From NCBI GenBank assembly GCA_009787645.1, contig WQSZ01000001.1, positions 7,145-61,182 of the forward strand: 54,038 nt of DNA, read 5' to 3'. Source of the stretch: Candidatus Fibrimonadales bacterium (GTDB lineage: Bacteria > Fibrobacterota > Fibrobacteria > Fibrobacterales > Fibrobacteraceae). The translations under genes were made by a program, and so were the position numbers. Below the pieces are notes generated by a model. The model made no database searches, was not told the origin of the DNA, and saw only the letters and a program-made list of their open reading frames with translations. This document shows, in pieces, positions 20,711-49,031 of the stretch (the stretch's first letter is position 1; each line of letters opens with the position of its first letter).

Positions 20711-20782
20711 GCGGCGGACCGGGCTCGAACCGGCGACAGTCAGCTTGGAAGGCTGAAACTCTACCAACTGAGTTACCGCCGC
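20710..20782 (-). tRNA. tRNA-Gly (anticodon TCC)
   Basis: The reverse complement GCGGCGGTAACTCAGTTGGTAGAGTTTCAGCCTTCCAAGCTGACTGTCGCCGGTTCGAGCCCGGTCCGCCGC folds as a cloverleaf with anticodon loop CTTCCAA. Discriminator is U and no CCA is encoded. The 3' end abuts the sprA stop codon. Confidence 0.9.
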
Positions 20783-20830
20783 GCAGATACAAATATAGTA
20801 AAAAATAATCATCGTGTCAAGGTACGACGA

Positions 20831-20862
20831 AAAGCCCGTCTGGCAAAGGAGCCAGACGGGGG
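20831..20862 (-). terminator. Candidate intrinsic terminator downstream of the flagellin gene
   Basis: 10-bp GC-rich stem (cccgtctggc / gccagacggg) with a 6-nt loop, followed on the minus strand by CTTTT. A second weaker hairpin (ggaacct..aggttcc) lies at 20861-20887. Confidence 0.5.
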
Positions 20863-20898
20863 AACCTCCAAAGGAGTAAAAGGTTCCGCTTAAACCTA

Positions 20899-31698: not shown

Positions 31699-32384
31699 TG
31701 CAGTATAAAGTTTTAGTTGTTGAAGACGAAGAGTTCATAAGAGACGGCTTGCAAGAGTGCCTGGAGATGGAAGATTACCAGGTTGCTGTTGCAGGTGATG
31801 GCGATGAGGCTCTGCAAAAAGCGGATGAGTTTTTGCCCCATCTTATTCTTTTAGATGTGATGATGCCCAAGAAAAACGGTTTTGATGTTTGCAGATTGCT
31901 GCGAAAAAAATATCCGTCTCTGGTCATAATTATGCTAACCGCAAAGGGAGAGGAAGCTTCAAAGGTTATGGGTTTGAACATAGGCGCAGACGATTACATA
32001 ACAAAGCCATTTTCAACTTTGGAATTGCTCGCCAGGGTAAACGCTTTTTTCAGAAAGCTCGCCATGCAAATGGAGTCTCTCGCTTTTAGCGGCGAATCTG
32101 CCGAGTTTAACGGCATTAAGCTGGACTTCAAAAAATACGAGGCAACCAAGAATGGAGATGCTTTGGATTTGAATGTTCGTGAGTTTCAAATTCTCAGTCT
32201 GTTTTGCAAACGACGCGGCGAAGTTATATCCAGGGAAGATCTTATTCAGTTGATAGATTCCAGTTCTAACTCCAGAACTATAGATAACTACATAGTGAAG
32301 CTCAGGCAAAAGATAGAAGAAGATCCGGAAAGCCCAAGGCTCATATTGTCCATAAGAGGGATGGGGTATAAGCTGGATGCTTAA
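31698..32384 (+). CDS. OmpR/PhoB-family response regulator
   Basis: 228 aa. Receiver domain (VLVVEDEE, LILLDVMMP, ITKPF) plus a winged-helix C-terminus (IDNYIVKLRQKIE...IRGMGYKL). Confidence 0.9.
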   Translation: MQYKVLVVEDEEFIRDGLQECLEMEDYQVAVAGDGDEALQKADEFLPHLILLDVMMPKKNGFDVCRLLRKKYPSLVIIMLTAKGEEASKVMGLNIGADDYITKPFSTLELLARVNAFFRKLAMQMESLAFSGESAEFNGIKLDFKKYEATKNGDALDLNVREFQILSLFCKRRGEVISREDLIQLIDSSSNSRTIDNYIVKLRQKIEEDPESPRLILSIRGMGYKLDA

Positions 32385-34910: not shown

Positions 34911-34949
34911 ACGACAGGGTTGCGTAAGTAGCTCTGTCGTTTTTGTTTT
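34911..34949 (+). terminator. Intrinsic terminator after the HU gene
   Basis: Stem acgacagg / ctctgtcgt followed by TTTTTGTTTT. Confidence 0.7.
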
Positions 34950-34971: not shown

Positions 34972-35000
34972 TTGACAAGGTTGATTTTTTTTTCTATATT
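34972..35000 (+). promoter_or_regulatory. Sigma-70-type promoter for the 35057-38359 operon
   Basis: TTGACA (34972-34977), a 17-nt spacer, then TATATT (34995-35000). The RBS AAGGAGG lies at 35045-35051 before the ATG at 35057. Confidence 0.6.
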
Positions 35001-35056
35001 TACGCCGGAACTGAGAGGGAGCGCTTTATTATATAACAGCCAGCAAGGAGGTATTT

Positions 35057-35818
35057 ATGCGTATTTACGCATTTGTGCTTGTTATTATATTCACCGCAGC
35101 TCTTTCTCACGGCCGGAACTTCGCTTCCATCCGCAAAGACGCTTTTACAGTAGGCGTTAGCAAAAGCGACTCCGCCGCAGAATGTGATTTCATAGCAGAC
35201 ATCACGGCAAAGATGAAAATCCCACGCTTTAGGCTGGTGGTTTTTGAAAATTCAAACGCCGCACAAAAACTCCTCTTAGAAGGCAAAATAGATGCCATGA
35301 TCTCAAAAATAACCCATTCCCAACGCTTGGAAGCGAGTTTCTTAGTCTCAGCCCCCTACGCAAAAACAGAAATAGCCGTAGCCATCTTGGCAAAAAACAG
35401 CGAAATCTGGACCTTGGCAGACTTAAACGGCAAAGGCATAGCCTTCATTCCAAAAGAAATCTCCGGCGAACAAATCAAAGAATTCTGGCAAAACTCAAAA
35501 CCGATAGCTGCTCCAACTCTAAGAGAAGCCATAAAGCTCCTGCAAAAAGGCGAAGCCTCCGCCATAATAGCAAACAAAGAAACATTAAAAGAACCAGCCC
35601 TAAAAATCTTCCCAAACACCCTAGCAGAAAACAACACAGTAGCCCTATTCGCCCCCAAATCCCAAACCCTGCAAGAAGAATTCAACAAAGCATTAAACGC
35701 ATTAAACACAAAAAATTCTGAAAATCCTGTAAATTCTGAGAATTCTGGTTCAGACAGAAGAGAAAGAATTTTGCAACTGCTCAACGAACTCCAAAAAGAG
35801 ATCAAGGAGCTTAAATGA
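35057..35818 (+). CDS. Periplasmic SBP_bac_3-like (amino-acid-binding / MltF N-domain-like) protein with C-terminal coiled coil
   Basis: 253 aa with a signal peptide (FVLVIIFTAALSHG). Matches the family in LLLEGKIDAMISKITHSQRLEASFLVSAPY and LADLNGKGIAFIP. ATGA-coupled to the next gene. Confidence 0.65.
   Translation: MRIYAFVLVIIFTAALSHGRNFASIRKDAFTVGVSKSDSAAECDFIADITAKMKIPRFRLVVFENSNAAQKLLLEGKIDAMISKITHSQRLEASFLVSAPYAKTEIAVAILAKNSEIWTLADLNGKGIAFIPKEISGEQIKEFWQNSKPIAAPTLREAIKLLQKGEASAIIANKETLKEPALKIFPNTLAENNTVALFAPKSQTLQEEFNKALNALNTKNSENPVNSENSGSDRRERILQLLNELQKEIKELK
35710..35756 (+). repeat. Copy A of a 47-nt imperfect direct repeat, made of four 9-nt tandem units (AAATTCTGN)
   Basis: The sequence is aaaaaattctgaaaatcctgtaaattctgagaattctggttcagaca, located in the 3' part of the SBP-like gene where it encodes NSENPVNSENSGSD. 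Confidence 0.8.
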
Positions 35819-37152
35819 CAGACTTTTATGCGCAGGAATTAAAAACTTTGCAAACCCTGAAAAAAGATTTTGACAGCGTTTATCAAAATGCCGAATTGAA
35901 TTTTGACACCGAGCAATTATTGGCTGGGCTTGCCTCTTTAACCGCTAGAATTCGCCGTGAAATGGCGGAAACAGAAAACGAGATAGCCAGAGATTTTGTG
36001 GACAGCGTTGCCCCTGAAATGCTTTTGCCACGACCTGCCCGCTGCCTTGTGGAGATAATTCCTTCGCCAAGCGATAACCTAGAAAGAGAAATTCCAGATG
36101 GTTCATTGCTCTATTCCAAAAGCAAAAGGGAAAAGCCGTTTTTTTGGCGAGTGATTGGCGAACACAAATTGAATCCTCTGCAAAAAATAATTTCTGTTAA
36201 AGCTTTTGAAGATTGCCTTGAATTTGAAACCACAGGAAGCGGCCCTTGGATTATTTACATAAACGGAGGCTGGGATTTATGGCATTTTATGCTGGAGCAC
36301 GCAAAGCCTTATATCATGGCAAAGCCGCAGAATCCTTGGGAATTGTGCAGAGACTTTTTTTGCTTTGAAGAAAAATTCAAATATATTTACATGGAAAATT
36401 TACCGCCAAAACTGAGATTTTCAAAGAATATTCCCGCAAAAGTTAGCGCAGAAAATTTTAAGCTCAAAGTTTTGCCAATAGAAAATTCTTTTGAACAAAA
36501 TCTGGAGCCAGTGCTGTTGGAAAGCGGCGCATTTGAAGCAAAAATTTTTCCAAACGAAGAACGGCAAATTATTCTGCATTTAAAAGATGTGTTAGCCGGA
36601 AATGCCAAAAGAGCGAATTTCAAGGAGATTCAGTATCGCTATGATTCAAATAGAATTCGCTTTGAGAGCTTAGATGCAGATATGCTTTCCATAGCAGCGA
36701 TTGTTTGCGATGGAAATGCTGCTGCTTTGGAGGCGTTGCAGGCAAAAAACTCTACAATGCAGATGTGCGAAGTGCGCCCTGTGATCGATATGCTGCCGTT
36801 TTTGCCATGTTCCCAGTCAGCGGAATGGGAGATTTTGGGGCTTTTGCAAAGGAATTATCTGCGTTTTTTTGAAAACGATGCATTGAAAAATGCGCTGAGC
36901 ATGTTTGACACTCGTTCTTATATTGTGCAAAGCATAAAAAGTGTTTCTTTGGAGCATAAAAACGCTGTGTATAAGAATTGCCTGGTTCCATTGGCGTGCG
37001 TGAAAATAGTTCTGTCATTGGAATATGCGTCTGTTCTGCATGCTTTTGGCGAAATGCTTTATGAGTTGTTCAAGAAAATTTTTGTTTGCAATATGCTGGT
37101 AGAGCTTATTTTGCGCATTGAACCTTACGGAATGGAGCTGAAATGGGGATAA
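35815..37152 (+). CDS. tssF: TssF-like (T6SS baseplate wedge) protein, shortened
   Basis: 445 aa. The N-terminus FYAQELKTLQTLKKDFD...EQLLAGLASLTARIRREM...LLPRPARCLVEIIP parallels the TssF pattern YYxxELxYLRExxxEFA..ERLLEGFAFLxARxxxKLD..LxPxPSxxxVxF. The C-terminus WEILGLLQRNYLRF...LEYASVLHAFGEMLYELFKKIF..ELKW parallels the TssF C-terminal block. Confidence 0.65.
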   Translation: MTDFYAQELKTLQTLKKDFDSVYQNAELNFDTEQLLAGLASLTARIRREMAETENEIARDFVDSVAPEMLLPRPARCLVEIIPSPSDNLEREIPDGSLLYSKSKREKPFFWRVIGEHKLNPLQKIISVKAFEDCLEFETTGSGPWIIYINGGWDLWHFMLEHAKPYIMAKPQNPWELCRDFFCFEEKFKYIYMENLPPKLRFSKNIPAKVSAENFKLKVLPIENSFEQNLEPVLLESGAFEAKIFPNEERQIILHLKDVLAGNAKRANFKEIQYRYDSNRIRFESLDADMLSIAAIVCDGNAAALEALQAKNSTMQMCEVRPVIDMLPFLPCSQSAEWEILGLLQRNYLRFFENDALKNALSMFDTRSYIVQSIKSVSLEHKNAVYKNCLVPLACVKIVLSLEYASVLHAFGEMLYELFKKIFVCNMLVELILRIEPYGMELKWG

Positions 37153-37823
37153 GAAATTCTTTTTTTGAGTGGATGCAGCAAAAGAGAAATAAAAAAGTTC
37201 GCATAGTGGGCAGCAATTTCATGAAGCACCCAAGCGGTGACATAGATTTTGTCAAAATCAAAAAGAACGAGATAGTGCTCGGATTGAACGAGATGAGTTT
37301 ATGTGGCGCAGATTCCCCATTGCCGGACAATTTTTTGAGAGGCATAAGATGTGAAAATGAAAGCTCGGTTGTTTTAGCCGAGTTTTTGAATATGTTCCAG
37401 CATCACTTGGCAATGCTCAGATTCAGCGCATTTTTGGCAAAGAGGGGAGACAAAAATCGCATTGCATTATATAACGAAAAATTCTCACCGGAATTTCTGA
37501 GAAGTTTCTTTGCAAAGATGTTCCCCGCTTGCAAAGTGCAAGTCCATTGCTTTGAGCCGCTGAAAATTAAAAATCCCTCTCCGATTATTTTAGGCAAAAG
37601 CGGAAAAATCCTGGGAAACACCTGTACAACCATAACAGCGGCCATGCGTGTAGATATAGATGGAATTCCATTAGAGCAAAGCCGTGAATTAAAAAGGAAT
37701 TTCATAAAAGAAAAGTTTCCGTTCAAAATTAAAATGTGTTTCAGAACAAAAATTCAAAAAAACGAAGGTTTCCACTTGGGAACCAAAAACTTAGAAGACT
37801 TCAAATGGGAGAAATGGCTATGA
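37143..37823 (+). CDS. tssG: TssG-like (T6SS baseplate wedge) protein, shortened
   Basis: 226 aa. LGLNEMSLCGADSPLPDNFLRGI...LAEFLNMFQHHLAMLRFSAFLAKR parallels the TssG core (GLxGxxGPLPxxxTE...FLDxFxHRxxSLFYRAW). Overlaps the TssF-like gene by 10 nt. Confidence 0.6.
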   Translation: MGIRNSFFEWMQQKRNKKVRIVGSNFMKHPSGDIDFVKIKKNEIVLGLNEMSLCGADSPLPDNFLRGIRCENESSVVLAEFLNMFQHHLAMLRFSAFLAKRGDKNRIALYNEKFSPEFLRSFFAKMFPACKVQVHCFEPLKIKNPSPIILGKSGKILGNTCTTITAAMRVDIDGIPLEQSRELKRNFIKEKFPFKIKMCFRTKIQKNEGFHLGTKNLEDFKWEKWL

Positions 37824-38359
37824 AAAAAATCCTGAAAATTCAGATAATTCTGCAAATTCTGGTCCAGACAAGCTGCATGCAGTTAGAGTACGCAGAAATG
37901 CTTAAGGTTATGGAAGACCCTTCTTCCAGCTCTGTTACGGTGGCAGAGGGCCCAACATTGCAAATGGGCGAGCATGAGCTTGCTCACAGAGGCATTAGCT
38001 ATTACGAGGCTATCCTCATAAGCAATAAAATGTCTCTAGAAGAAGGCTTGGATACTCTTTATCAATACGATGCTCCGGTGTTCACGGAAGATTCTCTTTT
38101 TTGGCTGCCCAATATTCGGGTGTTGGAAGAGCGTTCCGGCTACAGGTTGCCTACAAAAGATGAGTGGCTTGCAGCCGAAGTTGAAAAGCAGGATGCAAAT
38201 GTGGGGGAGTGGCTTTATGGAGAGGCTCATTCTCAATACGCAGTTTTTGAGCTAGCGCCGAATTTCGTTAAGGCTGTTGGCTTGTACAGAGAGCGGTCGG
38301 GTTATCCGGTGTATGGGATGCGTGTGGTGAAAGTGTTTTTGTATATTAACAGAGATTAA
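37820..38359 (+). CDS. FGE-sulfatase (SUMF1/GldK-like) domain protein
   Basis: ISYYEAILISNKMS..GYRLPTKDEWLAAE..VGEWLYGE..GMRVVKV fits the FGE/SUMF1 fold motifs. The start is uncertain: ATGA-coupled ATG at 37820 (hydrophobic leader ending QTSC) or an in-frame ATG near 37910. Confidence 0.5.
   Translation: MKKILKIQIILQILVQTSCMQLEYAEMLKVMEDPSSSSVTVAEGPTLQMGEHELAHRGISYYEAILISNKMSLEEGLDTLYQYDAPVFTEDSLFWLPNIRVLEERSGYRLPTKDEWLAAEVEKQDANVGEWLYGEAHSQYAVFELAPNFVKAVGLYRERSGYPVYGMRVVKVFLYINRD
37824..37870 (+). repeat. Copy B of the 47-nt imperfect direct repeat
   Basis: The sequence is aaaaaatcctgaaaattcagataattctgcaaattctggtccagaca. It matches copy A at 39 of 47 positions by my count and is read in a different frame (KILKIQIILQILVQT). 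Confidence 0.8.
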
Positions 38360-38371
38360 GAAGGAGTGATA

Positions 38372-38827
38372 ATGTGCAAGGTTTTTGATGTTGCCAAGTA
38401 TATTCTGTCGGAGATAGGTGAGGTTTCCACTATGAAGCTTCAGAAGCTCTGCTATTATTCTTTGGTCGAAGGACTTGTTTCTCCGCAACAGGTTGCTATT
38501 TTCCCCAATAAATTTAGCGCGTGGGCTAATGGGCCTGTATGCCGTGATTTGTGGAATGTTCACCAAGGCTTATTTTATGTGGATAAAAAGATTATTCCAA
38601 AGTCATTGCTCTCCAGAAAAGAACTTCCGCTTATGTATAAAAAATATATTAATGCGGCATTGGAAAAGTATGGGAAAATGACAGGCACAGAGCTTAGCGA
38701 GTTGACCCACAAGGAAAAGCCGTGGATAGATGCGATTCAAGATGTGAACACATCAAAGAATTCTAACCGAGTGCTTTCCAATAAGGTTATTATTGAATTT
38801 TACAGGAAAAAACGACGTTATGTCTAA
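38372..38827 (+). CDS. Panacea/DUF4065 (SocA-like) antitoxin
   Basis: VFDVAKYILSEIGEVSTMKLQKLCYYSLVEG...FSAWANGPVCRDLW is the DUF4065 signature. The ATG at 38372 lies 5 nt after the AAGGAG at 38361-38366. Confidence 0.7.
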   Translation: MCKVFDVAKYILSEIGEVSTMKLQKLCYYSLVEGLVSPQQVAIFPNKFSAWANGPVCRDLWNVHQGLFYVDKKIIPKSLLSRKELPLMYKKYINAALEKYGKMTGTELSELTHKEKPWIDAIQDVNTSKNSNRVLSNKVIIEFYRKKRRYV

Positions 38828-39242
38828 ATTTAAATGGCGCATTGATAGCGAAAATTATTTGTCCAACAATTCCAAGCAAGCAGACAAGATGATGTTGAAA
38901 CATTTTGTTGAGACTGTTTGTTGCAGTTTGGATGAGTATTGTGAAAAATACACGCTTGAAGATGCGAAAGCCGGTAAGATAAAGTATTGTCATTCGTGCT
39001 CTGGGCTTAGAAATAGAAATAGTTCTTCTGCGAAAAAATTGTACGGACATATGCAAGAGATAAACACAAGGCTCGGCAATAAGCCTGAACCTGCTCAAAT
39101 CTGCGAAAATGACATTTATCAATTCAAAATAAAAGAATTTGAAGGCAAGAGCGGATACAGGTGCTTTGGATATTTTTTGCCAGGCGATGTTTTGTTTAAC
39201 TTGATTTATCTAGACCCGGATCATGAGGTTTACAAGGAGTAG
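38820..39242 (+). CDS. Candidate toxin partner of the Panacea antitoxin (unclassified)
   Basis: 140 aa. The ATG at 38820 overlaps the upstream stop (ATGTCTAA). The C-terminal GYRCFGYFLPGDVLFNLIYLDPDHEVY is reminiscent of a RelE/ParE-type C-terminus. No firm family. Confidence 0.4.
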   Translation: MSKFKWRIDSENYLSNNSKQADKMMLKHFVETVCCSLDEYCEKYTLEDAKAGKIKYCHSCSGLRNRNSSSAKKLYGHMQEINTRLGNKPEPAQICENDIYQFKIKEFEGKSGYRCFGYFLPGDVLFNLIYLDPDHEVYKE

Positions 39243-39266: not shown

Positions 39267-39662
39267 ATGGATTTTATAAAAGCGTTATTGCCTAAATTCA
39301 TTCAATATTTTTTTGTTGGGTTGTTTTGTGCCATTGTGAATTGGTGCATGTTTTATATTTTCAACTATAAGCTTCATATTGCTTATCTGCCTGCGGCTAT
39401 AGCAGCCTTTTTTATCAGTGCGACCGTGAATTTCTTTTTGTGCAAAATAGTGTTTAAGTCCAAGGAGGGCAGGAAAAAGATTACGGAATATGTTATGGTT
39501 GTTCTGGTTGGGGCAATAGGATTGTCCATAGACTTAGGCATAATGACCTTATGCATTGAATTTTTCAAGTTTCCGAATATGTTTGCCAAAATCACCGGCA
39601 CAGGAGTTGCCTTTATTTTTAACTACATAAGCAAGCAATTTTATATATTTTCCCCTAAGTGA
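39267..39662 (+). CDS. gtrA: GtrA family membrane protein
   Basis: 131 aa with 4 TM helices; FIQYFFVGLFCAIVNWCMFYIF.. is typical of GtrA. Confidence 0.8.
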   Translation: MDFIKALLPKFIQYFFVGLFCAIVNWCMFYIFNYKLHIAYLPAAIAAFFISATVNFFLCKIVFKSKEGRKKITEYVMVVLVGAIGLSIDLGIMTLCIEFFKFPNMFAKITGTGVAFIFNYISKQFYIFSPK

Positions 39663-39663
39663 A
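39631..39663 (+). repeat. Copy 1 of a 33-nt direct repeat (authentic 3' end of gtrA plus GTGA junction)
   Basis: The sequence is gcaagcaattttatatattttcccctaagtgaa. Confidence 0.85.
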
Positions 39664-41239
39664 TAGAGACTTTGACATAACTGTTCCCGCAGGGCTCACA
39701 TCTGAAGTTCCAACCTTCAATTGGCTGCATGGTTATGAAATAACAGAAGAATTATTAGCAAAATGTTCTGCTCTGTATTCAAAACATTATGGCTTATGGA
39801 GTGAACACGATCCGCAAAAACGAATTGGCAACATAAAGCTTTCAGTGAGTAGAATAAAAAAATGGGTTGAGTCAAAAAATGCAAAAATAGCATATTGTGA
39901 GAATAAAGATTGTGAACTTTTAGGATATGCTTTTTGCATTCAGGAGAATATAACTAATATTGGCTATATTTCTTGGGTTACACAATTAGTGGTTCATAAA
40001 GATTACAGAAATAAAGATATTGCCAAGCGTATGTTATTTTATATTTGGAATTTCGCAGATCATAAATGCTGGGGGTTGCTCACTGCGAATCCATATGCTG
40101 TACGGGCACTGGAAAAAGCAACTCGCAGGCGAGTATATCCGGCTAGAATTCAGAAAAATGCAGAAGAAGTATTCGCCTTTGGTAAAGAAAATGTGTCTTA
40201 TTTGGAAGATGTTACTCCGCCAATTGTCAATAATGAAGCCTCTAAAATAAACACAAAATTCTTTGTAAATCATTCCGATGTTCCTGAAATGATGAGTAAA
40301 TCATCAAAAGATGAGGCTTGGTTGCTAGGTTCTCTGGAAGAAGGCTGGGAATGGTTTGCATTTACTTTTTCAGACCAAAATACTATACCGCTTTCAGAAA
40401 AAGATATTGCGGAAATGCTGAAAATTTCTGATCAGATTACGCAAAGGGCGTACTCTAAAATGCAATTTGATTCTCATAAATGGGCAGGAAAAACCGATTA
40501 TGAAATAGATTATATTTTTAAAAAAATTAAAGTAAATTCTACGGATAAAATATTAGATGTTGGCTGCGCTACCGGACGTCACACAGCAAGATTGACAGAA
40601 CTTGGCTATAAGGCTTATGGAATTGATTATTCTCAGAAATTAATTGACATGGCAAAAAAGAAATACCCTGATATAAGTTTTAATGTTGCTGATTTTCGTA
40701 ATGAAAAGGATACGAAGGATATAGGAAAATTTGATTTAATTTTATTGCTATATGATGTATTTGGCAGTTTTGTTAGCACAGAAGATGATGGCAAAATGAT
40801 AAAACAGGTTTATTCTCATTTAAATTCAAATGGGTTTGCCGTAATATCCGTGATGAATTTACAATATATTCTAGCAAAAGGCGTTAAATCATTTTCTTTT
40901 AAGAATGAACCTGATAAAATCTATGAAATACCGTTGTCAGATGCTATGAGTAAAACTGGCGAAGTATTTAATGTTAATAATATTCTTTTAGATGCGGAAG
41001 AAAAAATTGTTTATCGTAGAGAGATATTTAGAGATGCTAAAAATCCATCTCAAATACCGGAAGAATTATTGGTTAGAGACAGGCGTTATTTGAAAGCAGA
41101 GATTGAGAATATGTTTAAAAGTCATTTTGAAATTGTAGAGAGTAAGTATGTTCGAGTTGGAGACTGGGAAAGCTGTGGAGAATCTGATGATTGCAAGGAA
41201 ATTTTATTGATTATCAGGAAAAGCTTGCTGGAGCAGTAG
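39659..41239 (+). CDS. GNAT acetyltransferase / class I SAM-methyltransferase fusion protein
   Basis: 526 aa with a GTGA-coupled start. The GNAT core is VTQLVVHKDYRNKDIAKRML. The methyltransferase motif I is ILDVGCATGRHTARL. Confidence 0.65.
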   Translation: MNRDFDITVPAGLTSEVPTFNWLHGYEITEELLAKCSALYSKHYGLWSEHDPQKRIGNIKLSVSRIKKWVESKNAKIAYCENKDCELLGYAFCIQENITNIGYISWVTQLVVHKDYRNKDIAKRMLFYIWNFADHKCWGLLTANPYAVRALEKATRRRVYPARIQKNAEEVFAFGKENVSYLEDVTPPIVNNEASKINTKFFVNHSDVPEMMSKSSKDEAWLLGSLEEGWEWFAFTFSDQNTIPLSEKDIAEMLKISDQITQRAYSKMQFDSHKWAGKTDYEIDYIFKKIKVNSTDKILDVGCATGRHTARLTELGYKAYGIDYSQKLIDMAKKKYPDISFNVADFRNEKDTKDIGKFDLILLLYDVFGSFVSTEDDGKMIKQVYSHLNSNGFAVISVMNLQYILAKGVKSFSFKNEPDKIYEIPLSDAMSKTGEVFNVNNILLDAEEKIVYRREIFRDAKNPSQIPEELLVRDRRYLKAEIENMFKSHFEIVESKYVRVGDWESCGESDDCKEILLIIRKSLLEQ

Positions 41240-41245
41240 GCTTGG

Positions 41246-41278
41246 GCAAGCAATTTTATATATTTTCTTATAAGTGAA
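41246..41278 (+). repeat. Copy 2 of the 33-nt direct repeat (relic gtrA 3' end in front of the oxidoreductase gene)
   Basis: The sequence is gcaagcaattttatatattttcttataagtgaa, identical to copy 1 at 30 of 33 positions. It would encode [10 protein letters not shown] against gtrA's SKQFYIFSPK*. Confidence 0.85.
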
Positions 41279-42659
41279 AAAGACTGCGTTAATTATAGGT
41301 GCCGGTCCGGCAGGGCTTACTGCGGCTTTGGAATTCTTGCAAAAGGGCGAAATTCATCCTATTATTGTAGAACAGGAGAGCTTTGTTGGCGGAATAAGCC
41401 GCACGGCAGAATATAACGGCAACCGAATGGATATTGGCGGCCACAGGTTTTTCAGCAAAAACGACTGGGTTATGAACTGGTGGAAAAATATATGCAGTGA
41501 TATGATGCTTCGCCCACGCCTTTCCCGCATTCTCTATTTGCGCAAGTTCTTTGACTATCCGGTTTCGCTAAATATGAACACAATAAAAGGGCTCGGACTT
41601 TGGCGCATGGCAAAAATTGGGTGCAGCTATCTAAAAGCCGGTCTTTTTCAAATTAAGCCGGAAAAAACATTACAGGACTTTATGCTGAATCGCTTTGGCA
41701 AAGAGCTGTATTTGACATTTTTCAAAGATTACACGGAAAAAGTTTGGGGCATTCCATGCGAGCAAATAAGCGCAGAGTGGGGTGCGCAGAGAATAAAGGG
41801 CCTGAGCATTGCAAAGGCACTCAAACACGCTCTTTTTAAAAATTCCAAAGAAACGAGCTTGATAGATGAATTCTTATATCCAAAGCTGGGTCCCGGAGCC
41901 TTGTGGCAAAATGCGGCTGATAAGGTTTTGGAGATGGGCGGGGAGATTTTGTTTGATAGCAAGGTTGTTAAAGTTGAGAGTGGAGAGTTGAAAGTTGAAA
42001 GTGGAAGAACTTTTAAGTTTGATTATGTTTTGAGCTCTATGCCTGTTCGGGATTTGGTTTGCGCAATGGATGGCGCTCCTCAGAATATTAAGGAAATTGC
42101 TGAGGGCTTGATGTACAGGGATTTTATTACGGTTGGTGTGCTTTTGGATAAATTGGAAGTTGGCAATATTAAGGATAACTGGATTTATGTTCAGGAGAGC
42201 GATGTTAAGGTAGGCCGTTTGCAGATTTTCAATAATTGGAGCGAGCATTTGGTTAAGGAGCCGGGCAAGGTTTGGATTGGCATGGAGTATTTTGCCAATG
42301 AAGGCGATGATTTGTGGGAGATGAGCGAGAGGGTTTTCAAAAAATTGGCCATAAGCGAGCTTGAACAAATAGGCATCGCAAAGAAGGAAAGTGTTTTGGA
42401 TAGCGTTGTGCTTAAAGTTCCCAAGGCTTATCCGGCATATTTTGGCACTTACAATAAATTCGGTGAGCTAAGGGCTTGGCTTGATGGCATTGATAATTTA
42501 TTCTTAATCGGGCGCAACGGAATGCACAAGTACAACAATATGGATCACTCAATGCTTAGCGCAATGGAAGCGGTGAAGGCCATTCACAGCGGCTCAGCGG
42601 ATAAGTCTGTGGTTTGGAATGTGAACAGCGAAGAAGATTACCACGAGAGCAAGAGCTAA
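41274..42659 (+). CDS. NAD(P)/FAD-dependent oxidoreductase (amine-oxidase/HemY-like fold)
   Basis: 461 aa with a GTG start and the dinucleotide motif [15 protein letters not shown]...VGGISR. Confidence 0.75.
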
Positions 42660-43576
42660 TGCTATCCATTATTGTGCCATGCTTAAACGAAGAAGCCAGC
42701 ATACCTTTGTTTTATGAAGAAATGCTTAAAATGCTTGCGCAGTTGAACGCGCAAGCAGAGTTTATATTTGTGGATGACGGTTCAAAAGACAACACATTGA
42801 GTGTTTTGCGCGAGATTGCCGAAAAAGATGAGTGCGTGCATTACATTTCTCTTTCTCGCAATTTTGGCAAAGAAGCTGCTATGCTTGCCGGTTTGCATAA
42901 AGCTTGCGGGCAATTTGCAGTGACTATGGATGCGGATATGCAAGACCCTCCGTCTCTTATTCCTCAAATGCTTGAAGCGGTTGCTTCGGGAGAATATGAT
43001 TGCGCTGGTACTAGGCGAGTGAGCCGCAAGGGTGAGCCGTTTATCCGTTCATTTTTTGCGCGACGTTTTTATGCGGTTATGAAACTGTTCTCAGATATAG
43101 AAATTGTGGATGGCGCTCGGGATTTTCGCTTGATGAACAAAGCTTATTTAGATGCGTTGCTGACTTTGCAGGAGAGGAATAGGTTTTCAAAAGGAATTTT
43201 TCCGTGGCTTGGCTTTAAAACAAAGTGGTTTGAATACGAAAATGTTGAGCGAACAGCAGGCCACACAAAATGGTCTTTTTGGAACTTGCTCTGGTATTCT
43301 TTTGACGGTATTGTGGCATTTTCTTCAAAGCCTCTTGCCATAGCCTCTATTTTGGGAATTCTGCTATTCCTTGTTTCAATTTCGCTTATTATATTTATAG
43401 TTGTTCGCAAGATAATGTGGGGAGATCCTGTTGATGGCTGGGCATCGACTATCTGCATAATTCTTTTTTGCTCCGGAGTTCAGCTTTTTTCCGTTGGCGT
43501 ATTGGGGCAATATATGGCAAAAACCTATACGGAAGTTAAGTGCCGCCCAAATTATTTGATAAGAGAACAGCAATGA
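42659..43576 (+). CDS. gtrB: GtrB/ArnC-like polyprenyl-phosphate glycosyltransferase (GT2)
   Basis: Start taken at the TAATG-coupled ATG at 42659 ([12 protein letters not shown]...). Has FVDDGSKDNT, MDADMQDPP and two C-terminal TM helices. Confidence 0.85.
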   Translation: MLSIIVPCLNEEASIPLFYEEMLKMLAQLNAQAEFIFVDDGSKDNTLSVLREIAEKDECVHYISLSRNFGKEAAMLAGLHKACGQFAVTMDADMQDPPSLIPQMLEAVASGEYDCAGTRRVSRKGEPFIRSFFARRFYAVMKLFSDIEIVDGARDFRLMNKAYLDALLTLQERNRFSKGIFPWLGFKTKWFEYENVERTAGHTKWSFWNLLWYSFDGIVAFSSKPLAIASILGILLFLVSISLIIFIVVRKIMWGDPVDGWASTICIILFCSGVQLFSVGVLGQYMAKTYTEVKCRPNYLIREQQ

Positions 43577-45318
43577 AAAGAATCCTGCGTGAGCCTTTGC
43601 TTTATTTATTGCCGTTGCTTGCGCTCATTTATATAATCATTGCTCCTCGCATGGATATTTCCGATATAAAGTCAACAAGAGGCAGCTCAACAGAAAATAT
43701 AAAGCTTCCATACTCGGCCGAAATGCCGCAAGGCGAAATTTTTTATATATCCTTTAATTTATTGAACAAAAACAATTCTGTAAAATTAAATATAATTCCA
43801 GATAACTGCATACAGGAAATTCTGATTAACGGAGAAAAATTCCCTTTAGATGGCATTGACGGGATTTGTGATTACCACAAGGGAGTTCATTTTGATTTTT
43901 CGAAATACGTTAAAAAAGGGATGAATCATTTTGAATTTCGCATGCAAAATCACACTGGGCCCGGAGGAATGCGGATTGGAATGCCTTATACTGGAGCTAG
44001 GTCGCTTTCTTTTGCGCACTATGTTTTTGCTTTGCTTTTGCTGCTTGCGATAGCTTTAATTTTAAGAAAATTTGAATTTAAATTCGTAGCCATTTCTATA
44101 ATATTGCTCGGAATACTTGCTCGCTTAATAGTATATACATACACAGGCCCTGCGCAAAACTCTTACGACACTTATGGGCATTTAGACTACATTCAAATAA
44201 TTGCCGAAGAAAAACGCTTGCCCAAAGGCAATGAATGCTGGCAATGCTATCAACCACCTTTGTATTATATTGCTTTTGCTGTTGTAAAAAATGCCGCAGA
44301 CTGGTATGAGCCTAGCCTAACTAACAGAATTATGCAACAGTGCAACCTATTGCTTTCTTTTATGTGCGTTGCTTTTGGCGTAGCGTTAATCCTGAATTTG
44401 CTAGGCAACAATACAAGAGCGCATCTAATAGCTACTGTTTCGGTTCTTTGGCCGGGTTTTGCATTGGTAGCACCCCATATAAGCAATGACATTCTATTTT
44501 ACACGACCTCTTTGTTCTGCATGCTATTTGCGCAAAGATATTGGCGAACGCATAAAAGCTCGGATATGCTGCTTGCTTCAATTGGGGCTGCCATTGCTTT
44601 GGCTGCAAAATCTAATGGTTTAGTTATTTTAGCCGCTTGGGCCATAATTTATATTGCATGCGCAATGCGTTCTCTGAAAATAGGTTCTCTGCGAGCGTTG
44701 CTCGCTTCCGTATTAATAGTAGCGCTGTCCATCGGGCTTTCACACCATAAAATGGTTGTGAATTTATTTGTCAATAAGAATTTAAACTTGGTTGATAATA
44801 TCGGGGGCATGCCTGATTTCCTGAAAGTTGAGAATAAAGCGGGCAATTATTTATATTTTGACCTGAAAGATTATCTGCTTACACCCTACGCAGATCCTTA
44901 CAATGACAAAGGCGGCAGGCATTATTTTTGGAATTATGCGCTGAAAACATCATTGTTTGGGGAATATAAGCAATGGGATTCGCCGGTTGGGCATATATTT
45001 GCAACGGCATTAAGCGTTCTTGCCCTGCTTATATTTATATTCGCTTTATGGGGAGTAATGCATGCAAGATTCAAAGATTTTCCTCCAATGATTTTTGCGA
45101 TATTTTTATTTGCAGCGCTTATTTATTTCAGGATTAGCTATCCCTATACTTCTTCCGGCTGTTTCCGTTATATTTATCCGGCGGTATTTCCTCTTGTGTA
45201 TTTTTCCGTGTGCGGAGTGCAAATTTTGGAAAAACCCCGTATGAGAAGATTTTCTTATGCGGCTATTGTTGCATTCTTCTGCCTGTCGTTTTTATTCATT
45301 CTCGGTATGTGGTTTTAG
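43573..45318 (+). CDS. GT-C fold (ArnT/PMT_2-like) membrane glycosyltransferase with N-terminal periplasmic domain, paralog 1
   Basis: ATGA-coupled to gtrB. Layout is TM1, a ~125-aa soluble domain (IKLPYS...IIPDNCIQEILINGEKFPLDGIDGICDY), then a multi-TM core with the YDTYGHLDY..YQPPLYY loop. Confidence 0.6.
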   Translation: MKRILREPLLYLLPLLALIYIIIAPRMDISDIKSTRGSSTENIKLPYSAEMPQGEIFYISFNLLNKNNSVKLNIIPDNCIQEILINGEKFPLDGIDGICDYHKGVHFDFSKYVKKGMNHFEFRMQNHTGPGGMRIGMPYTGARSLSFAHYVFALLLLLAIALILRKFEFKFVAISIILLGILARLIVYTYTGPAQNSYDTYGHLDYIQIIAEEKRLPKGNECWQCYQPPLYYIAFAVVKNAADWYEPSLTNRIMQQCNLLLSFMCVAFGVALILNLLGNNTRAHLIATVSVLWPGFALVAPHISNDILFYTTSLFCMLFAQRYWRTHKSSDMLLASIGAAIALAAKSNGLVILAAWAIIYIACAMRSLKIGSLRALLASVLIVALSIGLSHHKMVVNLFVNKNLNLVDNIGGMPDFLKVENKAGNYLYFDLKDYLLTPYADPYNDKGGRHYFWNYALKTSLFGEYKQWDSPVGHIFATALSVLALLIFIFALWGVMHARFKDFPPMIFAIFLFAALIYFRISYPYTSSGCFRYIYPAVFPLVYFSVCGVQILEKPRMRRFSYAAIVAFFCLSFLFILGMWF

Positions 45319-47063
45319 AAACCCATGCCCACGATAAACATAAAGGATAAGCCTGCGAAAGACAGCATAGCAACGTAGGAGAGTGCTTTTAAGCGAGAGT
45401 TTTGCAAGATTTGCGCGCCTCGCATGGCAAAGTAAACCAGCGGGAACAATGCCGGCATAATGTAGCGAAAATCGTTTGAGCAGGAATACGGATAGCTAAT
45501 GCGCAGATAAGCCAGCGCAGCAAGCAAGAATACAGCGAAAAGCAATGCCGGGAATTCTTTTAACTGCGCGTGTATCATGCCCCAAAGAGTCAGCATAAAA
45601 ATGAACAATAGCAGAAAGCTAAGCATTATAGCCAAGATATGCCCAGCAGGAGAACTCCACAATTTAAATTCTCCGAACAGAGATGTTTTTAAAGCGAAAT
45701 TCCAAAAGTATTGGCGGCCACCTTTATCTGACCAGGTTGAAGCATAAGGCTCAAGCAAATAGTCTTTCAAATCAAAGTATAAGTAATTTCCGGTTTTATT
45801 GACGACCTGCATGCCGCTGTGCAAATTTCTAATATTCCCAACCAAGCTTGCTTTGTTTCCATCGTAGATATCAATAACTGTTCTGTAATTAGAAAAGCCT
45901 AGAGACAATATAATTATAGATGCTGAAATCAACAAGGTTCGCAAAGAATGCATTCTGAAAAAACGCAATGAGCCGGAAATGCAAATGATAATCCAGATTG
46001 CTAAAATTACAAAGCCTGTGGATTTAGCCGTTAGGGCAATAGCCGCTCCAATAGAAGCTAAAATAATGTCGGAACTCTTGTGCATTTGCCAGTATTTCTG
46101 CGCAAAAAACATGCAGAATAAGGCTCCAAAATAAAATAAGCTATCGTTGCCTATTCGTGGGGCGGCCAATGCAAAACCAGGCCAAAGCACGGAAACAAGG
46201 GATGTTAGGTACGCAGGCCAGCAGTTCCCAAACAGGCGAATGATTAACGCTACCCCAAAGATAATGCTGCCAAAAGACAACAGAAGGCTGAATTGCTGCA
46301 GAATTCTATTGGCAATGCTGGGATCATAAAGATCGGAAAGTTTTTTTATAGCCGCAGATGATATGTAATATAAAGGCGGATGGTAAGTGCTCCAGCCTTC
46401 ATTGATTTCGGGCATGCGGTTTTCTTCGGAGATTATCTTTATATACTCCAAATGGCCGCCTGTGTCGTAAGAGTATTGGGTAGGGCCCACATAAGCGTAT
46501 AAAACCAATCGAACTGCAATTCCGAGCAGTATTATAGAAGCTGCTATAAACCTGAATTTGATCTTTCTTAAAATCAATGCTGTGGAAAGAAGGAAAAGCA
46601 ACGCAAAAACATAGTGCATTATTGAGAGCGACCGGAATCCGTTGTAAGGCGTTTCAACTCGCAATCCTGCGGGACCGCCGTGATTCAGTATGCGGAATTC
46701 AAAATGATTCAAGCCTTTTTGGGCATATTGAGAAAAATCAAAGTAAGCCCCCTTGTGATAGTCGCAAATCCCGTCAATGCCATTCAGCGGGAATTTCTTT
46801 CCGTTAATCAAAATTTCTTCTATGCAGTTATCAGGAATTATATTGAATTTCACAGATTGGTTTTTAGTAAGCAGATTAAACGATATGAAAAATACTTCGT
46901 TTGCTTCCGTGCTGATTGAGTAGGGTAGCTTTATATTTTCTGTTTTATTGTTCCTAGTTGCCTTTACATCAGAAAATTCTATTTTAGATGGCAAAATAAT
47001 TAAATATGCTATTGCAAGCAGGGGCAGCAGATATAATAGAGGGTTGCGAATGAGCTTTTTCAT
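45315..47063 (-). CDS. GT-C fold membrane glycosyltransferase, paralog 2
   Basis: 582 aa, colinear with paralog 1 along its full length. Its stop codon shares 2 nt with the convergent stop of paralog 1. Confidence 0.6.
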   Translation of the reverse strand: MKKLIRNPLLYLLPLLAIAYLIILPSKIEFSDVKATRNNKTENIKLPYSISTEANEVFFISFNLLTKNQSVKFNIIPDNCIEEILINGKKFPLNGIDGICDYHKGAYFDFSQYAQKGLNHFEFRILNHGGPAGLRVETPYNGFRSLSIMHYVFALLFLLSTALILRKIKFRFIAASIILLGIAVRLVLYAYVGPTQYSYDTGGHLEYIKIISEENRMPEINEGWSTYHPPLYYISSAAIKKLSDLYDPSIANRILQQFSLLLSFGSIIFGVALIIRLFGNCWPAYLTSLVSVLWPGFALAAPRIGNDSLFYFGALFCMFFAQKYWQMHKSSDIILASIGAAIALTAKSTGFVILAIWIIICISGSLRFFRMHSLRTLLISASIIILSLGFSNYRTVIDIYDGNKASLVGNIRNLHSGMQVVNKTGNYLYFDLKDYLLEPYASTWSDKGGRQYFWNFALKTSLFGEFKLWSSPAGHILAIMLSFLLLFIFMLTLWGMIHAQLKEFPALLFAVFLLAALAYLRISYPYSCSNDFRYIMPALFPLVYFAMRGAQILQNSRLKALSYVAMLSFAGLSFMFIVGMGF

Positions 47064-47065
47064 AT

Positions 47066-48820: not shown

Positions 48821-49031
48821 AGCGTTTATAATATACAAAATAGCATTTTAAAAAAGCCTTTTCTCGGTTCTGTTTTCAGGGCAAATGCATCTAAAATAGC
48901 ATCATTGAATGTGACGAATATCACACAAAAACGACATTTTTGACGAAAATCAATTTTTTTATGCATTTTTTCAAAAAAAAATCTTTTAAAATGCGTCTAA
49001 GTATATGGAAAGGTAACTATGGGAGATTTTT

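What the first reader, a model, noticed from the sequence alone, without database searches (positions are those of the whole stretch)
34972..38359. Orphan, shortened TssF/TssG-like baseplate-wedge pair in an operon with a periplasmic SBP-like protein and an FGE/GldK-like protein
ORFs 35815-37152 and 37143-37823 carry the N- and C-terminal hallmark blocks of TssF and the core block of TssG; the motifs are quoted in the features. As I recall them, typical lengths are ~600 aa for TssF and ~330 aa for TssG. These proteins are only 445 and 226 aa.

They are translationally coupled. An ATGA junction at 35815 links them to an upstream signal-peptide-bearing SBP_bac_3-like protein. A 10-nt overlap joins the two at 37143. 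An ATGA junction at 37820 links them to a downstream FGE/SUMF1-fold protein, the fold of the T9SS/gliding lipoproteins GldJ and GldK. The operon sits behind a near-consensus TTGACA-17-TATATT promoter.

No sheath (TssB/C), Hcp, VgrG, TssE, TssK, TssM or ClpV gene is present anywhere in the 54 kb. TssF2-TssG is normally only a sub-assembly of the contractile baseplate. A minimal F/G pair wired to envelope proteins suggests either a highly split T6SS or a repurposed wedge module in an undescribed envelope-associated system.
Basis: partly seen in the sequence, partly recalled or inferred. Interest (0 to 1): 0.8.

Follow-up and report, generated by a model that had tools for sequence, protein, structure and literature searches.

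The report
Detached mini T6SS baseplate-wedge module
Four tightly coupled genes in a termite-gut Fibromonadales genome are a shrunken, duplicated copy of one block of a type VI secretion (T6SS) gene cluster. The block holds two baseplate-wedge proteins and two envelope accessory proteins, and here it sits apart from every other T6SS gene, so it is a known machine in an unusual reduced form, not a new kind of system.

Summary
ORFs 35815-37152 (445 aa) and 37143-37823 (226 aa) are true but short TssF and TssG homologues. TssF scores 75 bits on Pfam, and its AlphaFold model matches solved TssF with TM 0.75. The ATGA, 10-nt and ATGA overlaps are real and recur in related loci. The four-gene order is conserved, and no other T6SS gene lies in the 54 kb.

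The interpretation needs correcting. The SBP-like and FGE-like partners are not foreign envelope or gliding proteins. In sister Fibrobacteria the same SBP-TssF-TssG-FGE order sits inside complete T6SS loci with ClpV, VgrG, Hcp, TssA/B/C/E/K/L/M and Rhs toxins. All four window proteins are positional orthologues of that block, and all four are smaller.

Fibromonadales carry at least two paralogous clades:
- 'Type A' keeps T6SS-locus neighbours (PEGA/FGE protein, NlpC/P60). One of its three loci, L015, also has Hcp and a short VgrG.
- The window copy belongs to another clade, which I call 'type B'. It has no T6SS neighbours and often lies next to a GtrA/GT2/GT-C glycosylation cluster.

All four genes are under purifying selection.

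I could not test whether sheath and membrane-complex genes exist elsewhere in the genome. This is a new variant of a known kind, of moderate interest.

The parts
34911..34940 (+). Intrinsic terminator of the upstream HU gene. It marks the 5' boundary of the operon.
   Evidence: 13-bp stem followed by a T-run.
34972..35000 (+). Promoter-like site, TTGACA-17-TATATT.
   Evidence: Read directly. It is the best-scoring site (11 of 12) in 34.4-45.4 kb. It is a consensus match only; promoter usage in Fibromonadales is unknown.
35057..35818 (+). Periplasmic SBP_bac_3-like protein (253 aa) with a signal peptide. It is the positional orthologue of the 317-aa SBP_bac_3 accessory protein of Fibrobacteria T6SS loci.
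   Evidence: PF00497, 33.8 bits. 32% identity over 245 aa, E = 6e-43, to L023:9033-9986. Also matches the SBP protein next to TssK/L/M in L029. Present upstream of TssF in 10 of the first 22 related loci. dN/dS about 0.13.
35815..37152 (+). Miniaturised TssF (445 aa), a baseplate-wedge protein with no signal peptide.
   Evidence: PF05947, 75.4 bits. A family profile hits EAEC TssF 6GIY_A at E = 8.9e-10 in three collinear stretches. AlphaFold model pLDDT 90.8. Foldseek top hit is TssF 6N38_H, TM 0.75, E = 6e-26. About 130 canonical alignment columns are missing, spread over about 14 sites. dN/dS about 0.1.
37143..37823 (+). Miniaturised TssG (226 aa), overlapping the end of tssF by 10 nt.
   Evidence: PF06996, 40.5 bits; TIGR03347, E = 2.3e-12. 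A family profile hits TssG 6GIY_C at E = 0.014, over the conserved 'G..SPLP' block only. Collinear end to end with the 277-aa TssG of a T6SS locus, E = 3e-22. The 10-nt overlap recurs in the related loci.
37820..38359 (+). Small lipoprotein (179 aa) with an invariant lipobox Cys19, a Ser-rich linker and a truncated FGE-type (C-lectin-like) domain carrying a GYRLPTKxEW motif. It is TagR-like in domain type only.
   Evidence: TIGR02171, E = 4.5e-12. Profile A5 hits TvpA 2Y3C at E = 1.3e-4. 48% identity over 61 aa, E = 7e-17, to the C-terminal FGE domain of the 489-aa protein that follows TssG in L023. Invariant Cys19 and motif residues across 15 orthologues. Present after TssG in 20 of the first 22 related loci.
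38366..39242 (+). Inserted pair: a SocA/Panacea-type antitoxin (38366-38827) and a 149-aa ORF (38793-39242). This is not part of the module.
   Evidence: PF13274, E = 1e-11, and NF047745. Absent in the close relative L004, where GtrA follows the lipoprotein gene after 3 nt.
39267..48838 (.). Neighbouring envelope-glycosylation cluster: GtrA, a GNAT/methyltransferase, an FAD amine-oxidase-like protein, GT2, and three paralogous proteins of about 590 aa with 9-11 predicted transmembrane segments (a paralogue in L001 hits the GT-C family PMT_2). It recurs next to the module. A functional link is not shown.
   Evidence: Pfam. Transmembrane-segment count. Members of this cluster lie next to the module in 13 of 23 loci, in either orientation. 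A paralogue in L001 hits PMT_2.

Best explanation
**What it is (shown).** The four genes are a detached, shrunken paralogue of the SBP-TssF-TssG-FGE block found in T6SS loci of class Fibrobacteria. The window comes from a termite-gut Fibromonadales bacterium.
- TssF and TssG are genuine baseplate-wedge proteins that keep the whole TssF fold and the TssG core motif.
- The SBP-like protein and the FGE-like lipoprotein are the envelope accessory proteins of this T6SS lineage.
- The whole block was duplicated within Fibromonadales, and all four genes are kept under purifying selection.

**How it most likely works (inferred).**
- TssF and TssG are made in fixed proportion by translational coupling and assemble into a cytoplasmic (TssF)2-TssG-type wedge.
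- The exported SBP-like protein and the lipoprotein act on the periplasmic or outer-membrane side, as an anchoring or sensing pair. This is loosely like the outer-membrane/periplasmic sensor TagQ/TagR in Pseudomonas.
- The window copy ('type B') serves as a second, alternative wedge-plus-sensor module for a reduced T6SS-type machine. Its tube and spike genes (Hcp, short VgrG, as seen in the 'type A' locus L015) and any sheath genes would lie elsewhere in the genome.

**Confidence.** About 0.9 for the ancestry and composition. About 0.45 for the 'still serves a T6SS encoded elsewhere' mechanism.
For: **Homology and fold.**

**Closest relatives outside the short family.**
- A profile search of 1.84 billion representative proteins found TssFs of 547-551 aa as the nearest relatives (E = 2.6e-78 and 6.5e-75). 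Canonical TssFs of about 586 aa start near E = 1e-32.
- Those relatives lie in the order ClpV-VgrG | PEGA/FGE-SBP-TssF-TssG-FGE-TPR-Rhs-immunity.
- A contig from the same sample as one of them (L026), with similar read coverage, carries ClpV-VgrG followed by TssE-Hcp-TssC-TssB-TssA-TssM-TssL-TssK.

**Positional orthology of all four window proteins**.

**The accessory pair in other Fibrobacteria.** The PEGA/FGE + SBP pair also sits next to TssK/L/M in other Fibrobacteria T6SS loci, including a 1.16-Mb MAG contig.

**Conservation within Fibromonadales.**
- F-G-X order in 20 of 22 loci (X is the FGE-like lipoprotein), with the same gene overlaps.
- dN/dS of 0.06-0.34 for all four genes.
- In the TssF tree, L015, L016 and L018 form a clade that keeps T6SS-locus neighbours.
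- L015 has an intact Hcp (PF05638, 108 bits), a 468-aa VgrG and a PEGA/FGE protein directly upstream of SBP-F-G-X.
- That Hcp is 89% identical to the Hcp of the complete T6SS while synonymous sites are saturated (pS 0.84, dN 0.08). This is long-term constraint, not recent transfer.
- The three MAGs with two copies each hold one type A copy and one copy from another clade.
Against: - No sheath (TssB/C), TssE, TssK, TssL, TssM, TssA or ClpV gene appears in the window or in 22 Fibromonadales loci (385 kb), nor in the further type A locus L112. In sister clades these genes lie within about 30 kb of tssF/G.
- The apparent ClpV hit in L015 is ClpB: it has a full M-domain.
- Nine of the 12 MAGs found show only one copy, and none of those is type A.
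- The VgrG in L015 is truncated (468 against 706 aa).
- TssG is missing in L003. TssG and the lipoprotein gene are missing in L009.
- All four proteins are smaller than their T6SS-locus counterparts.
- A VgrG homologue search listed Fibrobacteria hits but no Fibromonadales hits. This is a weak negative, because the word prefilter also missed the Fibromonadales TssFs.
- The module's recurrent neighbour is a glycosylation cluster, not T6SS genes.
Confidence: 0.5

Rival explanations
1. **Sheath-less repurposed module.** Fibromonadales lost the contractile sheath, membrane complex and ClpV. The mini TssF/TssG wedge, with its lipoprotein and often the SBP-like protein, was kept for a new, non-contractile envelope-associated role. 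That role may be linked to the neighbouring GtrA/GT2/GT-C glycosylation genes.
For: - No other core T6SS gene in about 400 kb of Fibromonadales loci, including type A loci.
- All four proteins shrank, then stayed under strong purifying selection.
- TssF and TssG diverged far (about 28% and 25% identity to the nearest T6SS-locus orthologues), while Hcp in L015 stayed 89% identical.
- The whole trio was duplicated.
- Glycosylation genes lie next to the module in 13 of 23 loci, in both orientations. A TMEM260-like GT-C and a GT2 lie beside the short VgrG in L015.
- Most MAGs show only a non-type-A copy.
Against: - TssF keeps the complete wedge fold and TssG the core motif.
- The short TssF/TssG form coexists with a highly constrained Hcp and a VgrG in L015. 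So at least one Fibromonadales lineage keeps tube and spike genes.
- No known non-T6SS function exists for TssF or TssG.
- Adjacency to glycosylation genes may be inherited synteny within one order.
- Absence of sheath genes was tested only in flanks of up to 10 kb, not in genomes.
Confidence: 0.35
2. **Decaying relic.** The module is a non-functional remnant of a lost T6SS that is on its way to deletion.
For: - Shortened proteins.
- Loss of TssG in L003, and of TssG and the lipoprotein gene in L009.
- Loss of neighbouring T6SS genes.
Against: - Intact ORFs in the window and nearly all of the 22 related loci, from at least 12 MAGs plus metagenome contigs.
- The overlapping start/stop junctions recur in the related loci.
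- dN/dS of 0.06-0.34 with saturated dS.
- The AlphaFold model is confident, which indicates a foldable protein.
- A duplicate of the whole trio has been retained.
Confidence: 0.05
3. **Part of a T9SS/gliding-type or other non-T6SS envelope machine.** This is the reader's GldJ/GldK analogy: the wedge pair is wired to foreign envelope proteins.
For: - The fourth protein has an FGE-type domain, the fold family of GldJ and GldK (my own knowledge).
- The window also encodes SprA (14045-20710).
Against: - The FGE-like and SBP-like genes are positional orthologues of genes inside complete T6SS loci.
- SprA lies 14 kb away and is not conserved near the module in any other locus.
- The lipoprotein keeps only about 120 aa of the FGE domain.
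Confidence: 0.03

Closest known systems
Canonical T6SS baseplate wedge, TssF2-TssG (EAEC Sci-1; PDB 6N38, 6GIY)
   Same: - Same families (PF05947, PF06996).
- Same gene order, with tssG directly after tssF.
- The TssF fold is shared (TM 0.75 to 6N38_H).
- The conserved TssG 'G..SPLP...FL..F.H' block is present.
   Different: - TssF is 445 aa against about 586 aa. TssG is 226 aa against about 300 aa.
- About 130 canonical TssF alignment columns are trimmed at about 14 sites.
- Only the N-terminal third of TssG matches the profile.
- Scores fall below NCBIfam's equivalog cutoffs.
- No TssE, TssK or VgrG lies nearby.
Fibrobacteria-type T6SS loci (uncultured; L023, L025, L026+L111, L029, L034, L035, L037)
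   Same: - Identical sub-order SBP_bac_3 - TssF - TssG - FGE protein.
- All four proteins are orthologous to the window's.
- The accessory PEGA/FGE + SBP pair is a hallmark of these loci.
   Different: - Those loci also carry ClpV, VgrG, Hcp, TssA/B/C/E/K/L/M, Rhs toxins and immunity genes.
- Their proteins are longer: SBP 317 aa, TssF 547-551 aa, TssG 272-277 aa, FGE protein 463-504 aa.
- The window copy has none of those neighbours.
TagQ/TagR envelope sensor of the Pseudomonas aeruginosa H1-T6SS
   Same: - TagR is a periplasmic COG1262 (FGE-sulfatase domain) T6SS accessory protein that works with the outer-membrane lipoprotein TagQ (PMC13584744; PMC7253367).
- The window's fourth protein is an exported FGE-type-domain lipoprotein encoded in a T6SS-derived operon.
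   Different: - No PpkA, Fha, PppA or TagS/T genes lie nearby.
- The domain is truncated to about 120 aa.
- I made no direct sequence comparison with TagR. The resemblance is in domain type and location only.
Orphan or auxiliary T6SS modules (vgrG/hcp/PAAR-effector islands)
   Same: A T6SS-derived gene set located away from a main cluster. Such orphan islands are common (PMC13098142).
   Different: [quoted passage not shown] My paper searches found no description of a detached tssF-tssG pair with its own envelope accessory genes.

Membership tests
TssF (PF05947 / TIGR03359) | Significant profile match above the curated threshold | tested here: met
   Pfam 75.4 bits against a cutoff of 25. The NCBIfam equivalog cutoff is not reached: 58.1 against 260.3.
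TssF (PF05947 / TIGR03359) | Collinear N-terminal, middle and C-terminal regions, and the gp6-like wedge fold | tested here: met
   Three collinear stretches against 6GIY_A. AlphaFold model pLDDT 90.8. Foldseek 6N38_H, TM 0.75, E = 6e-26.
TssF (PF05947 / TIGR03359) | Typical length of about 580-600 aa | tested here: not met
   445 aa. The family median in Fibromonadales is 471 aa against a canonical 586 aa.
TssG (PF06996 / TIGR03347) | Profile match above threshold, encoded directly after tssF | tested here: met
   Pfam 40.5 bits against a cutoff of 24.6, covering only profile positions 29-118 of 304. The equivalog cutoff is not reached: 46.7 against 143.3. Full-length collinear with a T6SS-locus TssG, E = 3e-22.
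TssG (PF06996 / TIGR03347) | C-terminal loops that bind TssK | not testable with these tools
   The C-terminal 130 aa have no profile match. No TssG structure model or complex prediction was possible.
Type VI secretion system (13 core components) | Co-located sheath (TssB/C), tube (Hcp), spike (VgrG), TssE, TssK, TssA, membrane complex (TssJ/L/M) and ClpV | tested here: not met
   None in the 54-kb window. None in the flanks of the related Fibromonadales loci, except Hcp and a short VgrG in L015.
Type VI secretion system (13 core components) | Remaining core genes elsewhere in the same genome | not testable with these tools
The VgrG searches gave only weak negatives.
FGE-sulfatase / C-lectin-like domain (PF03781; TagR, Tsi3, GldJ/K) | Domain match | tested here: inconclusive
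   Pfam E = 0.2, below threshold. However, profile A5 hits 2Y3C at E = 1.3e-4, and BLASTP to a PF03781-positive T6SS-locus protein gives E = 7e-17. Only about half of the domain is present.
FGE-sulfatase / C-lectin-like domain (PF03781; TagR, Tsi3, GldJ/K) | Catalytic FGE activity (active-site cysteine pair) | not tested
   Not examined. The truncated domain makes enzyme activity unlikely (inference).
SBP_bac_3 periplasmic binding protein | Domain match, signal peptide, and a cognate ABC transporter | tested here: inconclusive
   Domain match 33.8 bits against a cutoff of 26.4, and a hydrophobic N-terminus. No permease or ATPase is in the operon or conserved nearby. It behaves as an 'orphan' SBP-like accessory protein.

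The most novel reading that the evidence does not exclude
Termite-gut Fibromonadales have turned a T6SS sub-assembly into a stand-alone, sheath-less apparatus. It would consist of a miniaturised TssF2-TssG wedge, an FGE-type lipoprotein and an orphan SBP-like protein, working independently of contraction. It may act together with the adjacent GtrA/GT2/GT-C envelope-glycosylation genes. This would be the first non-contractile use of baseplate-wedge proteins.
Probability: 0.3. Interest if true: 0.8.

Novelty: new variant of a known kind. Interest (0 to 1): 0.5.

Why it matters
TssF and TssG are known only as obligate parts of a contractile baseplate. Here a complete tssF-tssG unit with its own envelope accessory genes has been miniaturised, duplicated and kept under selection away from all other T6SS genes, across an order of uncultured cellulolytic termite symbionts.

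Two outcomes are possible:
- If the rest of the machine exists elsewhere, this shows a T6SS with interchangeable wedge-plus-sensor modules and an unusually small baseplate. That would be useful for defining the minimal wedge.
- If it does not, this is a rare case of a contractile-injection part recruited to another job.

The work also brings out a Fibrobacteria-specific T6SS flavour whose loci carry PEGA/FGE and SBP_bac_3 accessory proteins. Text searches of a 2026 review of T6SS accessory factors found no mention of solute- or substrate-binding proteins, sulfatase domains or Fibrobacter (PMC13584744).

Tried and rejected
- **Shallow AlphaFold run.** An 81-sequence alignment that included canonical TssFs fixed this.
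- **Contaminated TssG alignment.** The first TssG alignment (A2) included the L003 lipoprotein by mistake. I rebuilt it as A4.
- **PADLOC.** No defence-system match for any of the four proteins.
- **Synteny with a T6SS locus.** I considered that the window might be syntenic with the T6SS locus of a Fibrobacteria MAG (L029), because both have a MiaB-like radical-SAM gene and a DUF2334 gene. I rejected this: the radical-SAM proteins are only 29% identical and DUF2334 gave no hit.
- **'ClpV' in L015.** This tblastn hit is ClpB; it has the full coiled-coil M-domain.
- **VgrG homologue search and VgrG metagenome scan.** Both looked for Fibromonadales T6SS genes. Neither returned a Fibromonadales or termite-gut hit.
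- **Literature.** I found no paper linking Fibromonas, Fibrobacteres or Fibrobacterota with TssF or orphan tssF/G. The held supplements of the Fibrobacteres phylogenomics paper contain no T6SS terms.
- **Neighbour clustering.** My first clustering reported only families present in four or more loci, so it missed Hcp and VgrG in L015. A targeted tblastn found them.

Full report
**1. What is in the sequence**

The region holds four co-directional ORFs:

| Gene | Coordinates | Length |
|---|---|---|
| SBP-like | 35057-35818 | 253 aa |
| TssF-like | 35815-37152 | 445 aa |
| TssG-like | 37143-37823 | 226 aa |
| FGE-like | 37820-38359 | 179 aa |

- Upstream, a strong terminator (34911-34940) ends an HU gene. 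It is followed by TTGACA-17-TATATT at 34972-35000 and an AAGGAGG ribosome-binding site.
- The promoter-like site is the best in 11 kb. Such sites are not enriched over shuffles, so it is only a consensus match.
- The SBP-like protein and the fourth protein have hydrophobic N-termini. The fourth has an invariant lipobox cysteine (Cys19) across 15 orthologues.
- TssF and TssG have no signal peptide.

**2. Are they TssF and TssG?** Yes.

- TssF scores 75.4 bits on PF05947 (cutoff 25), in three collinear stretches. TssG scores 40.5 bits on PF06996 (cutoff 24.6).
- Both stay under NCBIfam's equivalog cutoffs, so they are divergent members.
- A profile of the TssF family hits the solved EAEC TssF (6GIY/6N38) at E = 8.9e-10, over N-terminal, middle and C-terminal stretches.
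- With an 81-sequence alignment, AlphaFold gives pLDDT 90.8 and pTM 0.85. Foldseek ranks TssF of 6N38 first (TM 0.75, E = 6e-26). Next come the gp6-like wedge proteins of other contractile systems.
- The shortening is not the loss of one domain. About 130 canonical alignment columns are missing at about 14 sites. The largest gaps come after residues 143-194 and 268-288.
- TssG keeps the conserved 'G..SPLP...FL..F.H' block. It is collinear end to end with a 277-aa TssG from a real T6SS locus.
- The fourth protein is a truncated FGE-type domain: a profile hit to TvpA 2Y3C at E = 1.3e-4, and TIGR02171 at E = 4.5e-12.

**3. Where it occurs**

- All 60 close TssF homologues are 273-487 aa long, including a few fragments. 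Every one that carries an organism name comes from a Fibromonadales, Fibromonadaceae or Fibromonas MAG, apart from one 'Fibrobacteria bacterium'.
- A scan of one genome per species found 15 loci in 12 MAGs. Most isolate and contig names match termite-gut metagenome bins. Three MAGs hold two copies.
- The window's flagellin and SprA genes fit this lineage (PMC4704652).
- Across the first 22 related loci, the order F-G-X is kept in 20 (X is the lipoprotein). The SBP-like gene is upstream in 10. The gene overlaps recur in the related loci.
- dN/dS is 0.06-0.34 for all four genes. dS is near saturation, so the ratios are rough.
- The flanks vary. The only other recurrent neighbours are members of a glycosylation cluster: GtrA, GT2, an amine-oxidase-like protein, and proteins of about 590 aa with 9-11 predicted transmembrane segments (one paralogue hits the GT-C family PMT_2). 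They appear in 13 of 23 loci.

**4. Where it comes from**

- A profile search of 1.84 billion representative proteins shows the short family as two clusters. The next-closest proteins are 547-551-aa TssFs (E = 2.6e-78 and 6.5e-75). Ordinary TssFs of about 586 aa begin near E = 1e-32.
- Those intermediate TssFs lie in the order VgrG<-ClpV | PEGA/FGE(537 aa)-SBP_bac_3(317)-TssF(547)-TssG(277)-FGE(489)-TPR(429)-Rhs toxin-immunity.
- A contig from the same sample as one of them (L026), with similar read coverage, carries ClpV-VgrG followed by TssE-Hcp-TssC-TssB-TssA-TssM-TssL-TssK. I infer that the two contigs belong to one locus, which would make it a complete T6SS.
- Each window protein is the positional orthologue of its counterpart there:

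| Protein | Match to the T6SS-locus counterpart | E-value |
|---|---|---|
| SBP-like | 32% over 245 aa | 6e-43 |
| TssF | 28%, full length | 9e-51 |
| TssG | 25%, full length | 3e-22 |
| FGE-like | 48% over 61 aa, to the FGE domain | 7e-17 |

- The nearest named relatives of that VgrG are 'Fibrobacteria bacterium' MAGs.
- In one of those MAGs, and in three metagenome contigs, a PEGA/FGE + SBP_bac_3 pair sits directly beside TssK-TssL-TssM, with ClpV-VgrG a few kb away.
- So the SBP-like and FGE-like genes are lineage-specific T6SS accessory genes, not foreign partners.
- FGE-domain proteins already have two T6SS roles: the periplasmic sensor TagR (COG1262; PMC13584744, PMC7253367) and Tsi3-type immunity proteins (bioRxiv 10.1101/2021.05.21.445229).

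**5. Two kinds of module in Fibromonadales**

- tblastn with the core proteins of the complete locus against 385 kb of Fibromonadales DNA hit only two loci.
- L015 (MAG GUT307) has, directly upstream of SBP-F-G-X, an intact Hcp, a 468-aa VgrG and a PEGA/FGE protein.
- L016 has the PEGA/FGE protein and NlpC/P60. L112, the longer contig covering L018, has both of these plus a protein of about 800 aa. That protein is related to the one beside VgrG in L025.
- In the TssF tree these three loci form one clade, which I call 'type A'. The window falls in a different clade.
- Each two-copy MAG has one type A copy and one copy from another clade.
- The L015 Hcp is 89% identical to the Hcp of the complete T6SS, although synonymous sites are saturated. 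It has therefore been held under very strong constraint. TssF and TssG diverged to 25-28% over the same split.
- An apparent ClpV in L015 is ClpB.
- No sheath, TssE, TssK, TssL, TssM, TssA or ClpV gene was seen in any Fibromonadales locus.

**6. Interpretation**

*Shown:*
- The window module is a detached, miniaturised paralogue of the SBP-TssF-TssG-FGE block of Fibrobacteria T6SS loci.
- It is conserved and under selection.

*Inferred:*
- TssF and TssG form a cytoplasmic wedge.
- The two exported proteins act in the periplasm or at the outer membrane.

*Not resolved:* whether the wedge still feeds a T6SS encoded elsewhere, or has a new, sheath-less role.
- I put a T6SS elsewhere at about 0.45. 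The constrained Hcp and the VgrG in a sister paralogous locus favour it.
- I put a new, sheath-less role at about 0.35. The evidence for it is the total lack of other core genes in about 400 kb of flanks, the shrinkage, the erosion in L003 and L009, and the glycosylation-cluster neighbourhood.
- A decaying relic is unlikely given the selection signal.
- A T9SS or gliding connection is not supported.

**7. Novelty**

- I found no paper describing tssF/tssG in Fibromonadales, or a detached tssF-tssG-plus-accessory module.
- This is a new variant of a known kind. It is moderately interesting as it stands, and would be highly interesting if the sheath-less reading proves true.

Noticed in passing
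window 38366-39242: A SocA/Panacea-type antitoxin gene (153 aa; PF13274, NF047745) and an overlapping 149-aa ORF (weak MAG6450-family and NsnC hits) are inserted between the lipoprotein gene and gtrA. In the close relative L004, gtrA follows the lipoprotein gene after 3 nt. This looks like a toxin-antitoxin pair that landed inside the operon.
   Followed up: partly
window 39267-48838: Envelope-glycosylation cluster: GtrA, a GNAT + methyltransferase fusion (526 aa), an FAD amine-oxidase-like protein, GT2, and three paralogous proteins of about 590 aa with 9-11 predicted transmembrane segments and no Pfam hit. A paralogue in L001 hits PMT_2. Members of this cluster lie beside the F-G-X module in 13 of 23 loci, in either orientation.
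   Followed up: partly
L015 1800-5633: A TMEM260-like O-mannosyltransferase (GT-C, 978 aa) and a GT2 lie right next to the short VgrG in the type A locus of MAG GUT307. Glycosyltransferases therefore accompany both kinds of module.
   Followed up: no
L015 8709-9176 vs L111 6015-6482: The two Hcp proteins are 89% identical in amino acids but only 76% in nucleotides, with saturated synonymous sites. Over the same split, TssF, TssG, VgrG and the accessory proteins are only 25-36% identical. The tube protein and the baseplate have evolved at very different rates.
   Followed up: partly
L003 10001-11913; L009 5063-6406: One Fibromonadales genome (R8-3-H12) has tssF followed directly by the lipoprotein gene, with no tssG. 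Another locus (Co191P4bin13) has tssF alone, abutting a GT-C-like gene. TssF can therefore persist at a locus without its neighbours.
   Followed up: no
L023, L025, L026, L029, L034, L035, L037: Fibrobacteria T6SS loci carry a PEGA + FGE-sulfatase protein (about 540-570 aa) and an SBP_bac_3 protein (about 317 aa) beside TssK/L/M or TssF/G. NlpC/P60 is present in several of them, and a small lipoprotein follows VgrG in at least L111. I noticed no TssJ among the precomputed Pfam annotations. This accessory set may stand in for or extend the membrane complex.
   Followed up: partly
window 14045-22146: A 2221-aa SprA-like T9SS translocon gene lies next to a flagellin gene on the opposite strand. 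This fits a motile, T9SS-bearing Fibromonadaceae (PMC4704652).
   Followed up: no
window 31698-34482: An OmpR-type response regulator gene overlaps the start of a 701-aa secreted protein with weak BamB/PQQ beta-propeller matches, just upstream of the HU gene. I noted no sensor kinase nearby.
   Followed up: no
window 26265-27365: The EPSP-synthase-like ORF is only 366 aa and matches only positions 199-326 of the 417-position Pfam model. It may be truncated, frameshifted or a divergent variant.
   Followed up: no
L022 11907-12725 and L007 2622-3419: In the most divergent member of the short family (Fibrobacterales bacterium MS499-38, 40% TssF identity), the lipoprotein carries an N-terminal extension of about 90 aa before the FGE-like domain. 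Its length is intermediate between the 489-aa T6SS-locus protein and the 179-aa window protein.
   Followed up: no
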